Positions 3,807 through 60,048 of a DNA stretch of 64,000 bases are shown here, piece after piece. A program made the position numbers and the translations under genes. How positions within the stretch are numbered: the stretch's first letter is position 1; each line of letters opens with the position of its first letter. Location of the stretch: the IMG/VR virus record IMGVR_UViG_3300020530_000006. One strand, written 5' to 3'. A model generated the notes under the pieces. That model saw only the letters and a program-made list of their open reading frames with translations. It had not been told where the DNA came from and did no database searches. Source of the stretch: a virus.

Positions 3807-4173
3807 TATGTTTAAAGTAGATAAGTCTAAGACGCCAGAAGAATATAACTATACATACTATACAATATTTGGTTCTCACGAAGACTTGGACAACGATGGA
3901 AATCCATTGATCCAAGATAAGAAAAAATGCCTAGCTTATATTAGACATGGTAATGAGGATGAACATTTTTATTTGAAAGTTGGTACTTATGGGAAAATTT
4001 TCAATCCTATTGGACTATACTCAGAAGGAAGACAAAATAAGTTTTTATCAAAAATTGGTAAGGAAGAATACTCATTTACAAGAGTCAACAATAAGGTGTT
4101 TAGTATGTATCTAAATTTTTTACGAACAAAAAATATGGCATGGTTAAACAATGCGGAAAGGGAACTATCATGA
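3799..4173 (+). CDS. Hypothetical protein
   Basis: 124-aa ORF overlapping both neighbours in a tightly packed operon. Confidence 0.7.
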   Translation: MDDMFKVDKSKTPEEYNYTYYTIFGSHEDLDNDGNPLIQDKKKCLAYIRHGNEDEHFYLKVGTYGKIFNPIGLYSEGRQNKFLSKIGKEEYSFTRVNNKVFSMYLNFLRTKNMAWLNNAERELS

Positions 4174-55705: not shown

Positions 55706-56953
55706 CTAATTATTTAGAAAAAACCGATCTATCTGATTACAGTCGTTGCTTATGATATTTTTTTGAATATTTTCTATAGTTTTCTTATCTATTATATCTG
55801 GATGAACCCACCAATCCTCAAATGGGCTAATATCTGTTGGAGCAATATTAGGAATTAAAAGTTTATATCCTAATGACTCTAGATATTCTCTAGATTTAGT
55901 TCTATATGATCTTGTAATATCTACATAATAATCATGTTCATATGTTATGAATCCAAATTTATATTTATCAAACGGTATTGATATTAAAGCTTCATATGTT
56001 TTATCAGAAGGTTCTATATCTAATTGTAGATAATCTATAGTAGATATATTTGAAAAATATTTTTGTAATAATTTATTATAATCAATAATTAAAGCATCGA
56101 TGCATAATACTGGATTTTTTCTATGTTGTCTATAATTATTAACTAAATCTTGATCATATTCAATACCTATTCCATGCCATCCAAATTTCTGTTCGATTAG
56201 CGCAGTATTGCTATTTTTAAATGGTTCTGATGTTCCAATCTCTAAATATGTACCATTATATTTTCCATTAAATAAATGTAATAGCATCATATCTTGATAT
56301 GTTTGAGAATAATTTCTCTCTACGTGTTCAATTCCAGAGAAAGAAAATTTTAACCTCTCTCTAAATTTAGAATAATATGTTCTAATACATATGTGACACG
56401 GTCCAGATCCTAGCCAAAATACATTGTTACCAATAACAGACTTATGTTCTTCGGATAGTTGATCAAAATAATTGTTTAATAAGATTTGATAAATCTGTCT
56501 AGCCTCTGTTGGTTTACCAACATGGTAGGCTGATATGGCTTTTTGTAGTAAAAAAATATATTTCCCAGGGTAGTTCGATTGGGTGATCAATTTTGATGAT
56601 TGACCACAAATATCAAAAGCTATACAAGCATTCGTATACATATCAATCCAATTATTTTTTTTCTCATAATATTGACCAAGAAAAAAATATGCTTCAGGTT
56701 TCTTAGGATCAATCGTTATAGCTTGCTTTAGTAGAGTTTCGCAAGTAATATCTCTGCCTCCTAATCTATCATAGCATAGATACATCCTTATTATAGATTC
56801 ATATCTTAGATTTATATCATTCGTTACTTCTGCACACCTTAGAAAAAAGGAAAGTGCTGGTGAATAATGATTGATTGACTCGTACCATAATGCAATATTA
56901 AAATTACATAAATCATTTTTAGGATTATTTATATAATCTATTAAATAATTCAT
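55706..56953 (-). CDS. TPR-repeat + FkbM-family methyltransferase fusion
   Basis: N-terminal TPR helices (LKQAITIDPKKPEAYFFLG); C-terminal YSQTYQD, YLEIG, SNT..IE...W.GIGIE, IDYLQLDIE, TYEHD, EDWWV. Confidence 0.8.
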   Translation of the reverse strand: MNYLIDYINNPKNDLCNFNIALWYESINHYSPALSFFLRCAEVTNDINLRYESIIRMYLCYDRLGGRDITCETLLKQAITIDPKKPEAYFFLGQYYEKKNNWIDMYTNACIAFDICGQSSKLITQSNYPGKYIFLLQKAISAYHVGKPTEARQIYQILLNNYFDQLSEEHKSVIGNNVFWLGSGPCHICIRTYYSKFRERLKFSFSGIEHVERNYSQTYQDMMLLHLFNGKYNGTYLEIGTSEPFKNSNTALIEQKFGWHGIGIEYDQDLVNNYRQHRKNPVLCIDALIIDYNKLLQKYFSNISTIDYLQLDIEPSDKTYEALISIPFDKYKFGFITYEHDYYVDITRSYRTKSREYLESLGYKLLIPNIAPTDISPFEDWWVHPDIIDKKTIENIQKNIISNDCNQIDRFFLNN

Positions 56954-57936
56954 AGTCCTACCATTTCATTAATTATAGATTTATTTAGAGAAAGTAAATA
57001 TGCTGCGTTATCTTGAAAACCAAAAGTAATCAATATTTTTCCTTCAAATTCGGTCATACCGCAAGCAAATTCTATACCACCGTCCATAAAATCAAATCTA
57101 GGAGAAACTCTGAGAGGATTTAAATTTTGATCCCATAAAACAAACCTATGTCTATAAATTGCGTCTTTTCGACCAGCTTCGCTCGTAAATAAATGAACTT
57201 CATGTAATATTGCGAGATAGTGGTTTTCATATGGTATAACTTGTGAGCCTCCTCTCAAATCAGAAGTATTAAAATTTTTATATTCTGACATTATTATAGT
57301 TTTAGTAGATTGCGATGTTGGATCATACTCAACAACTTCAGTAGGATTTGTCCATTTTACATATTGATATGGTCTGTCAATTATTGGCATCCAGTTTTTT
57401 TCGCAATATGAGTTGTTCGGCTCTGGAGCTGGTAATCTTTGTCTATTAATCTCTTTTGGATTATCTTTTATATCAATTTCTGATAGTTCAATTCTACCCT
57501 GACCATTAGTAGTGGTATCCCTTCTAACTCCGCTCAAAAATAATTTATTATTCCATTTAATTAATCGACCATCTTCTAATCCTACAAATTCCCATAATGG
57601 TTTAACATCCAGAGTTGACGTATCCACTACAGAACTATGAATTATATTAAAATTATTATCTAGCTCACATATAATGTTATGAGTGGCTAATACTTGGTGT
57701 TGTTCGGTATGCAGATAACACAATGGTCCCCAAACGTGTTCATTTACGCCATTTTCTGAATGATAAAGAGTGTAGTTAACATTACGCAAATTAACTAATA
57801 ATTTACCATCTAAATTAATTATAGATGGATTCATTAAAGATGGCCCAACCATTTTATCGGTTGGAATTAATAGTGGATAAATATTTCCACCATTTTGGAT
57901 AGCTTTTTGTACAAAATTTCCTATATCACTAATCAT
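56950..57936 (-). CDS. Five-bladed beta-propeller glycosidase/phosphorylase-like protein (GH43/GH130-type clan)
   Basis: MNPSI, GLEDGRL, EKNWMP, LRGGS, YRHRF, IEFACG, ITFGFQD. Confidence 0.75.
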   Translation of the reverse strand: MISDIGNFVQKAIQNGGNIYPLLIPTDKMVGPSLMNPSIINLDGKLLVNLRNVNYTLYHSENGVNEHVWGPLCYLHTEQHQVLATHNIICELDNNFNIIHSSVVDTSTLDVKPLWEFVGLEDGRLIKWNNKLFLSGVRRDTTTNGQGRIELSEIDIKDNPKEINRQRLPAPEPNNSYCEKNWMPIIDRPYQYVKWTNPTEVVEYDPTSQSTKTIIMSEYKNFNTSDLRGGSQVIPYENHYLAILHEVHLFTSEAGRKDAIYRHRFVLWDQNLNPLRVSPRFDFMDGGIEFACGMTEFEGKILITFGFQDNAAYLLSLNKSIINEMVGL

Positions 57937-58021: not shown

Positions 58022-58654
58022 TTATAGGCCGTATCTACCTTTAATAGTATTATAATTTTGTAAAACTTCAGACGATGATAGTTCTTTATTATATAATTTT
58101 AGTGTGGATACTCTACCAGACATATAAGCTGTATCAGCTCGACCAATATAGATATTCCCAGTTGTTGTAACCTTTGATCCAAAAGTACTTACTAGATTAC
58201 CATTAACATAAAATAAACTAGATGATGACTTTCTAATAATCGTGGCGATAACCCATGAATTAATAGGAACAGAACTTGTTACTGCTGTAGACGAAGATCC
58301 TGGACCCCAATATGTAACAGAAGCGAAATTGAATATGCTCCACTGCCACGTGGTAGAATTATAAGCATTAGCTCCAGCATATATAATTGGAAAATTATTT
58401 CTATTGTTCATATAAAAAGAAACTTCCACAGACAGTGGCTCAAGAACATGCGGAACTATTGCATACTGACTTGTTCCATTAAGAGAAAAATAATTATTAG
58501 TAAAAGTTGGACTATTATATAGTGTAGCATTATATCCTGAACTAGACATATCATTCCAATTAGCTCCGCTGCCAGAATAGCTTTTATTAGATGCGGCATC
58601 TAAGCATAGAATAAGAGAGTCTGTGACTATTTTTGGTCCGTTATTATAGCTCAT
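58022..58654 (-). CDS. LamG/concanavalin A-like domain protein
   Basis: GPKIVTDSLILCLDA..KSY.GSG..W.D.S, FYVNG, LYNKELSSSEVLQNY...KGRYGL. Confidence 0.85.
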   Translation of the reverse strand: MSYNNGPKIVTDSLILCLDAASNKSYSGSGANWNDMSSSGYNATLYNSPTFTNNYFSLNGTSQYAIVPHVLEPLSVEVSFYMNNRNNFPIIYAGANAYNSTTWQWSIFNFASVTYWGPGSSSTAVTSSVPINSWVIATIIRKSSSSLFYVNGNLVSTFGSKVTTTGNIYIGRADTAYMSGRVSTLKLYNKELSSSEVLQNYNTIKGRYGL

Positions 58655-58691
58655 TCAATAAAACCTTATTAGTAAAATTGTTTAATGTTTT

Positions 58692-58930
58692 TGACCCATG
58701 GCTACCGCCAACATTGTGTCCTATAGTTTCCTATAAGCATGGACTATATCTTCCACGTTTGTGGTGGGGGCGCTCTAGCCTGTTATTAAAACAAACCTTT
58801 TTGTTTCAGGTAGTCTCTACACCTTCACAGAGATGGCTCTGTGCTTGGCTCGGTATTGCCATCAGCATTATCTGTTAAGGTTTCACCGAATTCACCCCCA
58901 ATGGGCCTATTCTCATATGGTGCTGGGCCT
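58692..58930 (-). ncRNA. ORF-less group I intron/ribozyme (IA-like, with P7.1)
   Basis: Minus strand: P3 UGGGGGUG/CGCCCCCA, P AAUUCGGUGAAA, Q AAUACCGAGC, P6a CACAGAG/CUCUGUG, R GUGUAGAGACUA, P8 CCAC-AAAC-GUGG, S AAGAUAUAGUCC, P9 UUAUAG-GAAA-CUAUAG, end ACAAUG (terminal G at 58712). Confidence 0.88.
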
Positions 58931-59473
58931 CCTTTCAATATTATTGTTCTTATATACTATGACAATGTTATTTTGAGTAATTTTTCCGTATCTATATATT
59001 TTAAAAAAATTAGGAATAGGAAGATTAGGAAAATCGCCAGGCTCTTTTTCAATAGCTATACTGTGAACACCCTCTATAAAAAAATAGCTATTGTTAGAAG
59101 GAAAGCTAAATAAAGACTTTAAAATAGATTGAGTAATAAATGTTGGTTCGCTTTCTCCTGTTACTTCTGTCGAATGAACAAGAGATCTAGAATTAAGTTC
59201 AGAAATGTCGATCACATTATCGGGCTGTTCAAAATTTTTAACACCTTTATATGTTTTGTAGTAATTAAAATTGTCATTCATGGATATATATTGATAAACA
59301 TATCTTCTTATACAAAGATTCTTTCTACTACCTGTTGATCCAGATCCGTAAAGAATAGCTTTTCCTCCACTTTTAAGAGTTGGGGGGGTATAAAATGAAT
59401 ATGTTTCTCCTACCGGATCAAAATAAGGATCATTGTTGTCAAAATGTGGAGGTTGTCCGTATACATTAGTCAT
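58913..59473 (-). CDS. Hypothetical protein; its 3' end runs into the group I element
   Basis: 186-aa ORF, TAATG-coupled to the upstream mini-gene. Confidence 0.65.
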   Translation of the reverse strand: MTNVYGQPPHFDNNDPYFDPVGETYSFYTPPTLKSGGKAILYGSGSTGSRKNLCIRRYVYQYISMNDNFNYYKTYKGVKNFEQPDNVIDISELNSRSLVHSTEVTGESEPTFITQSILKSLFSFPSNNSYFFIEGVHSIAIEKEPGDFPNLPIPNFFKIYRYGKITQNNIVIVYKNNNIERRPSTI

Positions 59474-59619
59474 TATAGTCCAAACCTTCCTTTAGTAGCA
59501 TTATAATTGTATAAAATTTCATTTGCTGATAATTCTTTATTATAAACTCTAGTAATAGCAATATCAATACAAAAAACTAATCCATCAGTAACTATATCTG
59601 GTCCTCCGTATATAGACAT
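59473..59619 (-). pseudogene. Internally deleted LamG gene (48-aa mini-ORF)
   Basis: MSIYGGPDIVTDGLVFCID joined directly to IAITRVYNKELSANEILYNYNATKGRFGL, matching the two termini of the 58022-58654 LamG protein. Confidence 0.85.
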
Positions 59620-59628
59620 AATATTTTC

Positions 59629-60048
59629 CTATATATATTGAGCTTCTATAAAAGCAGTATCAACCTGATTTTCTGTTAATCCTAGAGCCTGAGCTAGCGG
59701 AGCTAACATAGGATGATTTCTTTCCACATAAGGAGCATATTCCCATTCAACTTTTATAGTTTCTCGTGTTATTGGATCTTCTATACTATTTATAGCATTT
59801 TCTACTTGAGTTAATTGAATGCCGTTATTTATTAACCATAATCTTATTTGTCGTGCGCTAACGCTTTCTGGAACCGATTGTTGATATTGCGTCCATACTC
59901 CATTATTCCAATAATAATCATTGGCTGGTTTTTCTGGTAGTAAAGCCCACTTGTTTTTTTTGGGATTGTCGTTTTCAATCCAACCAGATACAAGTTCATC
60001 ACTCAGATCTTTAATTTCATAAGTGTCAACATTATAATATAAATTCAT
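59629..60048 (-). CDS. Tail-fibre-associated (chaperone-like) protein
   Basis: YYWNNGVW..., VPESVSARQIRLWL...EWEYA..VER.HP....LGLT..QVD..F..A module, commonly found next to fibre genes. Confidence 0.55.
   Translation of the reverse strand: MNLYYNVDTYEIKDLSDELVSGWIENDNPKKNKWALLPEKPANDYYWNNGVWTQYQQSVPESVSARQIRLWLINNGIQLTQVENAINSIEDPITRETIKVEWEYAPYVERNHPMLAPLAQALGLTENQVDTAFIEAQYI

What the first reader, a model, noticed from the sequence alone, without database searches (positions are those of the whole stretch)
58644..58920. Unannotated compact group I ribozyme core inside the tail-fibre/LamG accessory region
Seen: all canonical core elements (P3, P4/P, Q, P6, R, P7 GACUA/UAGUC, P7.1, P8, S, GNRA-capped P9, P9.0 AU/AU, terminal ...CAAUG) in about 200 nt that the ORF track fills only with spurious + strand ORFs. 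Known: phage group I introns mostly interrupt conserved DNA-metabolism, terminase or lysin genes and often carry a homing endonuclease. This one has no ORF and sits at the end of an orphan gene. Alternative to the permuted model: cis-splicing from U58915 to U58711 would remove the TGA of the 186-aa ORF and add FGGSHGSKTLNNFTNKVLLNEL, stopping at 58644 and overlapping the LamG start. I could not find a U.G P1 helix for that site.
Basis: partly seen in the sequence, partly recalled or inferred. Interest (0 to 1): 0.75.

Follow-up and report, generated by a model that had tools for sequence, protein, structure and literature searches.

The report
Group I ribozyme with downstream target
A real self-splicing-type (group I) RNA enzyme sits between two phage structural genes, but it is wired to cut the message behind itself rather than to splice a gene, a layout otherwise known mainly from engineered RNA-circle constructs.

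Summary
The ribozyme is real. RF00028 matches window 58720-58971 (minus strand) at 50.2 bits, E 1.4e-11. In nine relatives 98% of core pair cells are standard pairs and 25 of 55 pairs show compensatory changes.

That ORF belongs to a family of 32 homologues, and the 30 family members aligned (window ORF plus 29 homologues) all end at the same place. No upstream P1 exists. The proposed exon 2 is conserved RNA structure.

All 9 family loci with downstream DNA carry the ribozyme right after the stop. A second clade of 5 distinct members sits in front of a large virion gene. All 13 complete members share three things:
- an unvarying guide GGCCC three bases before P3;
- an unvarying GGGUCAA behind P9, giving 5 pairs that include a U.G;
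- a new covarying helix X that clamps the two (1 of 20000 permutations).

My best reading (confidence 0.6) is G-dependent self-cleavage at U58694|C58693. This frees the LamG mRNA and may close an 18-nt ring.

My searches found this layout in print only as engineered constructs, plus a different permuted precursor in a coral mitochondrion. Unchecked AI notes of this scan report similar elements on other phage DNA.

The parts
58913..59473 (-). 186-aa ORF of a conserved, uncharacterised family; complete, with stop TGA at 58915-58913
   Evidence: 32 homologues. The aligned C-termini coincide. No Pfam or PHROG match. AF2 model pLDDT 75.8, with no Foldseek match at E<=0.001.
58684..58907 (-). Whole conserved ribozyme element (224 nt), from the guide to the 3' strand of helix X
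   Evidence: Conservation begins at GGCCC and ends after helix X in the 13 complete members. The 5' flank is AU-rich and not conserved.
58903..58907 (-). Guide (IGS-like) GGCCC, followed by the 3-nt linker AUU (58902-58900)
   Evidence: Identical in all 14 members, including truncated L123. It lies between the 5' edge and P3, the slot that the guide GCCUCC also occupies (further upstream) in canonical terminase-gene relatives.
58893..58899 (-). P3 5' strand GGGGGUG; it pairs with CGCCCCC at 58772-58766
   Evidence: 7 pairs, 3 of them with compensatory changes, 100% of cells paired (helix 1).
58821..58889 (-). P4-P5-P6 domain (P4 58889-58884 with 58855-58850; P6a 58843-58837 with 58832-58826)
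   Evidence: P4 never varies. P5a and P6a covary, with 6 of the 7 P6a pairs changed on both sides.
58811..58815 (-). P7 5' strand GACUA; it pairs with UAGUC at 58746-58742, preceded by J8/7 AAGAUA at 58752-58747
   Evidence: Unvarying in the 9 sequences. The same J8/7 and P7 3' stretch (AAGAUAUAGUC) is found in canonical relatives; it occurs once, exactly, in the 159-kb genome.
58779..58810 (-). P7.1 long hairpin between P7 and the 3' strand of P3
   Evidence: Helices 8 and 9, with compensatory changes in L092.
58753..58764 (-). P8 hairpin CCAC-AAAC-GUGG
   Evidence: 4 of 4 pairs show changes on both sides (helix 10).
58720..58737 (-). P9 hairpin with GAAA loop
   Evidence: 7 of 7 pairs show changes on both sides (helix 11).
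58711..58715 (-). Helix X 5' strand AAUGU.
   Evidence: Pairs with 58688-58684. Matched pairs beat mismatched ones in all but 1 of 20000 permutations.
58699..58710 (-). Variable hairpin UGGC-GGUA-GCCA
   Evidence: The stem sequence differs between members while the pairing is kept: UGGC/GCCA, UAGC/GCUA, UGCU/AGCA, AGUC/GACU, GCGGC/GCUGC (read by eye from the sequences printed; RNAfold predicts a hairpin here in 6 of 9 members). It is expanded to about 70 nt in L128 and in clade 2.
58693..58697 (-). Target strand GGGUC, pairing with the guide (G-C, G-C, G-C, U58694.G58906, C-G). Cut predicted between U58694 and C58693.
   Evidence: GGGUCAA is identical in the 13 complete members. There is no GGGUC within up to 1500 nt (or to the locus end) upstream of the guide in 9 of 10 members, and upstream GGGU positions are scattered.
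58684..58688 (-). Helix X 3' strand ACAUU
   Evidence: coordinates checked.
58022..58654 (-). Downstream LamG-domain gene (210 aa). Its mRNA would start at C58693 after cleavage.
   Evidence: PF13385, E 2.2e-10. A gene opening with the same conserved N-terminal motif as the window's LamG gene (my reading, no family search run on them) follows the ribozyme in L121, L124 and L126.

Best explanation
This is a catalytically intact group I ribozyme that is not an intron of the 186-aa gene. Its guide (GGCCC, 58907-58903) lies at the 5' edge of the RNA. The strand that the guide pairs with (GGGUC, 58697-58693, with the U.G wobble typical of a 5' splice site) lies downstream of the core, behind P9 and a small hairpin.

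A further helix, X (58715-58711 with 58688-58684), ties the sequence just after the target to the sequence just after P9. It also buries a conserved G (58712).

Inferred mechanism. On the polycistronic late transcript the guide and target form a P1-like helix. A free guanosine or GTP bound in the P7 pocket attacks after U58694. The message is cut into two pieces: the 186-aa ORF with the ribozyme, and G-CAAAA...LamG mRNA.

Once helix X melts, G58712 could enter the G pocket, and the new 3'-OH of U58694 could attack after it. That would close U58711-U58694 into an 18-nt ring. This second step is much less certain.

Shown: the fold, its selection, the lack of an upstream splice site, the conserved guide/target complementarity, helix X, and the fixed position after this gene family. 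Inferred: that the two pentamers pair, the chemistry, the cut site and the ring.
For: Core. RF00028 scores 50.2 to 61 bits in the window, L001, L002 and L133. In the window, L001 and L133 the P1/P2 part of the model is poorly aligned (low posterior probability, gaps or mismatches). Covariation is strong (98% paired, 25 of 55 pairs compensatory, 0 of 500 shuffles; slid controls 35-42% paired).

Not an intron of the ORF. The 30 aligned family members end together. Rfam's P1 for the window lies in conserved codons and has U-A, not U.G.

No upstream target. No GGGUC lies within up to 1500 nt (or to the locus end) upstream of the guide in 9 of 10 members, and L126 and L128 have no GGGU at all in what upstream sequence is held.

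Fixed linkage. All 9 ORF-family loci with downstream DNA have the ribozyme 0-28 nt after the stop, although the next gene differs. A tenth locus, L125, ends inside the ORF.

Guide and target. GGCCC plus a 3-nt linker plus P3, and GGGUCAA, are identical in 13 of 13 complete distinct members from two clades, while P3, P5a, P6a, P8 and P9 all vary. In canonical terminase-gene relatives the guide GCCUCC likewise sits between the intron's 5' end and P3, though with a longer linker, and pairs with the 5' exon GGUGGU, with one intron-side pair as here.

Helix X. There are ten different sequence pairs; mean matched score is 5.77 against 4.09 mismatched, and 1 of 20000 permutations is as high.

Feasibility. 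Engineered Tetrahymena constructs with the ribozyme first and the target after the insert cut and circularise, and 'only the P1 helix' is needed (PMC10457212, abstract and section 7; PMC10415121, passages).
Against: The guide and the target never vary, so their pairing has no covariation support and rests on complementarity of two conserved pentamers. My rough estimate of chance for one register is about 0.007.

The linker to P3 is only 3 nt, against about 7-8 nt in P2-less canonical relatives. I could not test whether P1 can dock.

G58712 is paired inside helix X, so a role as omega-G needs a conformational switch. No P10 is evident. P9.0 fails in L001.

An 18-nt ring is very small, and the ring sequence is not conserved.

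The per-sequence shuffle test of helix X was weak (fractions 0.03 to 0.94). The sequences are related, so the permutation figure is not a true probability.

There is no biochemical or transcript evidence.
Confidence: 0.6

Rival explanations
1. An ordinary cis-splicing group I intron at the 3' end of the 186-aa gene. Splicing would remove the stop codon and add a short C-terminal exon.
For: RF00028 aligns a nominal P1 in the last codons of the ORF. L002 has a small hairpin with a U.G there. The tail ...AAUG resembles the A-rich, G-ending 3' ends of terminase-gene introns.
Against: The 30 aligned family members stop at the same place, with no extension. The nominal P1 is conserved coding sequence and lacks U.G in the window and L001. 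In more distant members 12-28 unconserved AU-rich bases separate the stop from the guide. The proposed exon 2 is structured RNA with compensatory changes. The ribozyme was present in 9 of 9 assessable loci, which is unlike a sporadic mobile intron.
Confidence: 0.05
2. A ribozyme that acts only at a 3' splice site, or a lariat-capping-like ribozyme. GGCCC with GGUC would be a P10-like helix, the first G of GGGUC would be omega-G, and the RNA would cut by hydrolysis or branching just before GGUC without a 5' exon.
For: There is no 5' exon. A helix joining a strand just 5' of the core to a strand 3' of P9, plus extra helices formed by flanking strands, recalls the lariat-capping ribozyme's peripheral domain (my recollection of its layout; its function as quoted in PMC8637638). 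The element sits in front of an mRNA.
Against: The base before GGGUC is not conserved (U, G, A or none). An unvarying U.G followed by one further pair is the signature of a 5' splice site, as in the canonical relatives. The strand connections differ from a DP2-DP2.1-P10 three-way junction. No family other than RF00028 scored on this strand at E<=10.
Confidence: 0.15
3. A non-cleaving structured RNA or an immobilised intron relic. It would be kept as a 3' stabiliser of the upstream message or as an insulator between cistrons.
For: There is no activity data. It always follows one gene family, close to the stop codon. The ring would have no conserved sequence.
Against: J8/7 with the P7 3' strand, and the P4 to J5/4 stretch, are letter for letter those of canonical relatives, and J3/4, P4, J6/7 and both P7 strands never vary across members whose ORFs are only 40% identical. 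A mere stabiliser would not need these.
Confidence: 0.12
4. A trans-acting ribozyme. The guide GGCCC would target GGGU sites on another phage or host RNA, and the downstream GGGUC would be a decoy or autoinhibitor.
For: The guide sits at an exposed 5' edge. Short guides can act in trans (recalled from work on the Tetrahymena ribozyme; no call).
Against: A 4-5 nt guide has no specificity. The cis target is unvarying and is held in place by helix X.
Confidence: 0.05

Closest known systems
Engineered 'self-targeting and splicing' and ribozyme-upstream circular-RNA constructs built on the Tetrahymena group I intron (PMC10457212, PMC10415121)
   Same: Same order of parts: guide, then catalytic core with terminal G, then insert, then target ending in U. 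P1 is formed with a downstream strand. Extra complementary arms bring the ends together, as helix X does here. P1 alone suffices.
   Different: Those are laboratory designs with long inserts. This one is natural, conserved in at least 13 phage genomes, has an insert of only about 18-90 nt, and sits between protein genes. Cutting the message, not making a ring, may therefore be the point.
Canonical ORF-less phage group I introns of the same sequence class (terminase-gene and tRNA-gene introns, loci L003-L120)
   Same: The P4-P6 core stretch used as the search pattern is identical across the class, and J8/7 with the P7 3' strand is identical in the terminase-gene subset; in that subset the distance from P4 to P7' is also similar (119-145 nt against 142-143). 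The guide lies just 5' of P3.
   Different: In those the guide pairs with an upstream exon, and the flanks restore a gene (for example YGG|..AAGAGK in terminase). Here there is no upstream exon, both flanking genes are whole, and the target is downstream.
ND5-717 group I intron of mushroom-coral mitochondria (PMC6545197)
   Same: [quoted passage not shown]
   Different: The permutation there arises at transcript level, around a giant intron that holds most of the mitochondrial genome in P8, and the splicing restores a coding gene. Here the break is at P1, it is fixed in the DNA, and no coding exon is joined.
Lariat-capping (GIR1) ribozyme
   Same: A group I derivative that no longer splices but makes the 5' end of a downstream mRNA (PMC8637638, Discussion passage).
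   Different: That one is eukaryotic, has a remodelled core and uses a branching reaction. Here the core is standard group I and the reactive helix looks like P1 with U.G.
Natural circularly permuted group II introns (PMC8637638)
   Same: A natural rearranged self-splicing ribozyme in bacteria that makes RNA circles and does not interrupt an ORF.
   Different: A different ribozyme class and chemistry.

Membership tests
Group I catalytic intron (RF00028) | Conserved core fold P3-P9 with the P7 guanosine pocket and J8/7 | tested here: met
   50.2 bits, E 1.4e-11; 56, 56.3 and 61 bits in relatives; covariation.
Group I catalytic intron (RF00028) | P1 formed by the guide and an upstream 5' exon ending in U of a U.G pair | tested here: not met
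   No conserved upstream GGGU or GGGUC. Rfam's P1 is low-confidence and lies in coding sequence. In the window, L001 and L133 the P1/P2 model positions are poorly aligned or deleted.
Group I catalytic intron (RF00028) | Interrupts a gene, so that exon ligation restores the reading frame or RNA | tested here: not met
   The 186-aa ORF is complete. The downstream genes start with their own ATG.
Group I catalytic intron (RF00028) | Terminal omega-G at the 3' splice site | tested here: inconclusive
   A G is conserved 1-3 nt before the hairpin in clade 1, and also inside the 5' strand of helix X in clade 2, but it is base-paired in helix X.
Group I catalytic intron (RF00028) | Self-splicing with guanosine | not testable with these tools
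   Needs in vitro transcription.
Permuted / target-downstream group I design (PIE, STS) | Guide 5' of the core, with the target U downstream of the core's terminal G | tested here: met
   GGCCC at 58907-58903, G58712, GGGU at 58697-58694; same order in 13 of 13 members.
Permuted / target-downstream group I design (PIE, STS) | Produces a circular RNA from the segment between the two sites | not testable with these tools
   The predicted ring U58711-U58694 is 18 nt. No transcript data.
Lariat-capping ribozyme (GIR1) | Remodelled core, and a match to its own Rfam model (that Rfam holds one is recalled, not checked) | tested here: not met
   In the scan of all 4227 families at E<=10, only RF00028 hit this strand.
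Riboswitch-controlled (allosteric) group I ribozyme | A ligand-sensing aptamer adjoining the ribozyme (system recalled from memory) | tested here: not met
   No riboswitch family in 58300-59300 at E<=10.

The most novel reading that the evidence does not exclude
The ribozyme is a phage device for maturing mRNA 5' ends. By adding GTP at U|C it would give the downstream structural-gene message a fresh triphosphate-G 5' end and free its start region from P1 and helix X. In the second clade the AUG follows GGGUCA directly, so cleavage would leave an almost leaderless mRNA. Expression of virion genes would thus depend on ribozyme folding and GTP, an RNA-only counterpart of the eukaryotic lariat cap. 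The small ring would be a by-product.
Probability: 0.25. Interest if true: 0.9.

Novelty: new variant of a known kind. Interest (0 to 1): 0.8.

Why it matters
Group I ribozymes are textbook selfish introns. A conserved natural family that has given up splicing, and has its splice-site helix rewired so that the enzyme cuts behind itself, would be a second case (after the eukaryotic lariat-capping ribozyme) of a group I core turned to a new job, and the first in phages.

It would show that the ribozyme-first layout recently engineered for making circular RNA already exists in nature. It would also offer compact, P2-less natural scaffolds for that use.

It gives a testable idea of how phages separate and activate cistrons of long late transcripts. 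There is a practical lesson too: standard Rfam scans with default filters missed the element in 64 kb and in the whole genome, so such elements are probably under-annotated.

Tried and rejected
Scans that missed the element. The whole-window Rfam scan at gathering threshold, the genome search for RF00028 and a 13-kb E-value scan of L001+L002 all returned nothing, though 0.6-1-kb scans score 50-61 bits. I treat this as a filter effect, not as absence.

The 186-aa ORF. No Pfam or PHROG family. No tblastn hit in 50,697 cultured-phage records. The AF2 model (pLDDT 75.8) has no Foldseek PDB match at E<=0.001. Its function stays unknown. The link of the clade-2 392-aa ORF to this family is weak (hhalign 44%, 29 columns).

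Readings I dropped:
- A P2 made of GGCC/GGCC in the window, because L001 has GACC there.
- Rfam's P1 in the window, and the L002 hairpin with U.G, because neither is conserved and both are coding.
- A role of the AAGGAGG near the ORF end as a shared RNA motif, because it is coding and its distance to the guide varies.
- The reading that the 186-aa ORF lies inside the intron with a splice site upstream of its ATG. The ORF overlaps the stop of different upstream genes, and no GGGU is conserved there.

Methods that fell short. MAFFT alignment A3 puts the 3' tails out of register, so guide/target and helix X could not go through the count of structure pairs. I used scripts instead. The first helix-X test, by shuffling each sequence, was weak, and my automatic P9 end was misplaced in 4 of 13 sequences. 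The corrected version still misplaces P9 in L002.

Promoter and terminator scan: 8 promoter-like sites against 7.1 expected, and 0 terminators. So there is no evidence for a promoter of the ribozyme's own, and none against co-transcription.

Literature. Seven searches found no printed natural phage or bacterial group I ribozyme with a downstream target. Subscription journals and supplements were not searchable.
Full report
WHAT IS THERE. The window is part of a 159-kb uncultured phage record. All genes around the finding run on the minus strand. In order they are a 689-aa fibre-like gene, a LamG gene, a 139-aa gene, a 48-aa LamG remnant, a 186-aa ORF (59473-58913), a 258-base gap, and a LamG gene (58654-58022; PF13385).

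A whole-window Rfam scan found nothing. A 1-kb scan with lax filters gave RF00028 at 58971-58720 on the minus strand, at 50.2 bits and E 1.4e-11. The region is also richer in G+C than its flanks (0.41-0.47 against about 0.30) and folds better than shuffles (z -3.3).

THE 186-AA ORF IS WHOLE. It has 32 homologues of 162-205 aa. In the alignment of 30 of them (window ORF plus 29 homologues), all C-termini coincide (...YRYGKI.NN.IV....) and end 3-9 residues after the last conserved block.

Rfam's nominal P1 (58968-58941) lies inside these conserved codons and has U-A where U.G is required. The gene is therefore neither an orphan nor interrupted.

THE RIBOZYME TRAVELS WITH THIS GENE. Scans of IMG/VR and of metagenome contigs with the protein alignment gave ten loci, plus L128 found by a DNA pattern. 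L128's 172-aa ORF is a family member (hhalign 98.4%).
- In 9 of 9 loci that have DNA after the ORF (window, L001, L002, L121, L122, L123, L124, L126, L128) the same ribozyme begins 0-28 bases after the stop.
- L123 is cut off by its contig end, and L125 ends inside the ORF.
- The ORFs are down to 40% identical, and the next gene differs: it opens with the LamG-type N-terminal motif in the window, L121, L124 and L126 (my reading of the translated starts), is a 746-aa fibre in L001, a 219-aa protein in L002 and a 901-aa fibre in L128.

I found no family member without the ribozyme.

A SECOND CLADE. A pattern holding the guide and P3/P4 found five further distinct members: L092 (with L132 nearly identical), L130, L131, L133 and L134.
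- L133 scores 61 bits, with most P1 model positions deleted and the P2 region at low posterior probability.
- In the two I inspected, the upstream ORF is about 392 aa, with only a weak resemblance to the 186-aa family.
- The downstream gene, 1094 aa in L092, is a virion structural protein (phrog_5838, E 4e-158).
- L092 and L131 are two different copies on one 148.8-kb contig.

THE CORE IS UNDER SELECTION. On nine sequences, 98.0% of 494 pair cells are standard pairs. 25 of 55 pairs show changes on both sides, and 0 of 500 column shuffles reach these values. Sliding the partners by 1-3 columns drops pairing to 35-42%. P3, P5a, P6a, P7.1, P8 and P9 covary. P4, P6 and P7 never vary, and J3/4, J6/7 and J8/7 are likewise unvarying in the alignment.

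The same P4-P6 stretch is shared with 118 or more canonical phage introns in tRNA and terminase genes, and the same J8/7-P7 stretch with the terminase-gene subset. By sequence, then, this core is not separable from active introns.

WHAT IS MISSING AND WHAT REPLACES IT. Conservation starts abruptly at GGCCC (58907-58903). Upstream of it lies only an AU-rich spacer of varying length. There is no P2, and 3 bases (AUU) link GGCCC to P3.

In the closest canonical relatives, the terminase-gene introns, the guide GCCUCC also lies between the intron's 5' end and P3 (with a longer linker of about 7-8 nt). It pairs with the 5' exon GGUGGU, ending in U.G, plus one intron-side pair. Here no matching upstream exon exists. 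GGGUC is absent from up to 1500 bases upstream of the guide (or as far as the locus reaches) in 9 of 10 members. GGGU occurs at scattered distances, or not at all in L126 and L128, where only 211 and 1278 upstream bases are held.

Instead, all 13 complete members have GGGUCAA behind P9. GGGUC is complementary to GGCCC: three G-C pairs, U58694.G58906, then C58693-G58907. That is a P1 with the wobble in the usual place and one intron-side pair.

Neither pentamer varies, although P3 next to the guide does. The pairing therefore rests on complementarity and position, not on covariation.

A NEW HELIX. Between P9 and GGGUC lies an A-rich tail with a conserved G (58712 in the window), then a hairpin. 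The hairpin's stem sequence changes while its pairing is kept: UGGC/GCCA, UAGC/GCUA, UGCU/AGCA, AGUC/GACU, GCGGC/GCUGC (my reading of the sequences). It grows to about 70 nt in L128 and in clade 2.

The tail pairs with the bases that follow GGGUC by 2-10 nt:
- window AAUGU/ACAUU
- L001 AAAGCU/AGCUUU
- L121 GGUGU/ACACC
- L124 AUAUGU/ACAUAU
- L122 and L126 UUGAUG/CAUCAA
- L128 UGAUG/CAUCA (one search scored the overlapping AUGAU/AUCAU)
- L092 AAAAGUC/GGCUUUU
- L130 ACGUC/GGCGU
- L131 UGUGU/ACACA
- L133 AUGUGC/GCACAU

(These are trimmed cores; one search reports some of them one or two pairs longer.)

Matched tail/flank pairs score 5.77 on average against 4.09 for mismatched pairs, and only 1 of 20000 permutations reaches that. 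The sequences are related, so this number overstates independence. A per-sequence shuffle test was weak.

This helix X encloses the hairpin and the target strand.

HOW IT MOST LIKELY WORKS. The order guide, core, conserved G, insert, target-U is that of engineered ribozyme-first circular-RNA constructs. In those, guanosine attacks after the target U, and the new 3'-OH then attacks behind the ribozyme's terminal G; P1 alone is sufficient (PMC10457212, abstract and section 7; PMC10415121, passages).

By analogy I predict a G-dependent cut between U58694 and C58693. It would separate the message of the 186-aa ORF, still carrying the ribozyme, from G-CAAAA...LamG mRNA.

Helix X would hold the target in place and keep G58712 out of the G pocket until the first step is done. 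After that an 18-nt ring (U58711-U58694) could form. I rate the cut at about 0.6 and the ring at about 0.3-0.4.

In clade 2 the start codon follows directly (GGGUCA-AUG) and the first codons form helix X. In L124 the AUG overlaps helix X. Cleavage would therefore also uncover the start of the next gene. No terminator-like site and no above-chance promoter lie in 58300-59700, so co-transcription with the upstream gene is plausible but not shown.

RIVALS. These are ordinary cis-splicing (0.05), a P10-type or lariat-capping-like 3' cutter (0.15), a non-cleaving structure or relic (0.12), and a trans-acting ribozyme (0.05). The reasons are given under rival explanations. The main weakness of my own reading is the lack of variation in guide and target, together with the very short linker to P3.

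WHAT IS KNOWN.
- Natural circularly permuted group II introns are described (PMC8637638). A passage of that paper cites a permuted group I precursor in coral mitochondria.
[quoted passage not shown] It is a transcript-level permutation of a giant intron that restores ND5.
- Phage group I introns in print interrupt genes, for example 2513 of them in Jug phages (PMC12880540, passages).
- Seven full-text searches found no natural phage or bacterial group I ribozyme with a downstream target. Subscription-only papers and supplements could not be seen.

Unchecked AI notes of this scan report similar elements in other phage genomes, and two first-reader notes on this same stretch propose the permuted reading. 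I had reached that reading from the comparative data before opening them (stated). They gave me the lead to the engineered self-targeting constructs.

VERDICT. The cis-splicing interpretation is not supported. The element is a conserved, non-intronic group I ribozyme with its target strand downstream. That makes it a new natural variant of a known ribozyme kind, with an inferred and untested role in cutting the message, and perhaps activating the next gene.

Noticed in passing
window 59473-59619 (minus strand): A 48-aa ORF that equals the first ~20 and last ~28 residues of a LamG-type protein with the core missing. Its stop overlaps the ATG of the 186-aa ORF (TAATG). PHROG hits cover only the C-terminal 30 residues.
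   Followed up: no
window 1-64000; G000 whole genome: Default-filter Rfam and Infernal searches miss this ribozyme although it scores at or above the gathering threshold in short scans. Such P1/P2-less cores are likely to be under-annotated.
   Followed up: partly
L092 and L131 (one 148.8-kb IMG/VR contig): Two diverged copies of the module (upstream ORF, ribozyme, large virion gene) in one phage genome, each with GGGUCA-AUG at the junction.
   Followed up: partly
L001 about 3830-3860: About 60 nt after the ribozyme's GGGUCAA, a second partial copy of the 3' strand of P7 plus the start of P9 (GAUAGUCCAUACUAUAA). It may be a recombination scar or the remnant of a second ribozyme.
   Followed up: no
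loci L005, L010, L011, L016, L017 and dozens more of L003-L120: Many IMG/VR phage contigs carry tRNA genes interrupted in the anticodon loop by group I introns of the same core class (5' exon ...GGUAGACACACCAGACUU|AUG...). Others interrupt terminase at YGG|.
   Followed up: no
window 58938-58909 (minus strand): A promoter-like site, TTGAAA-18-GAGAAT (9 of 12), ends 2 bases before the guide. The number of such sites in the region is no more than chance.
   Followed up: no
window 55706-57936 (minus strand): Downstream of the LamG gene lie a 328-aa protein with a faint glycoside-hydrolase-130-like match and a 415-aa TPR protein. Enzyme-like genes sit among the fibre genes.
   Followed up: no
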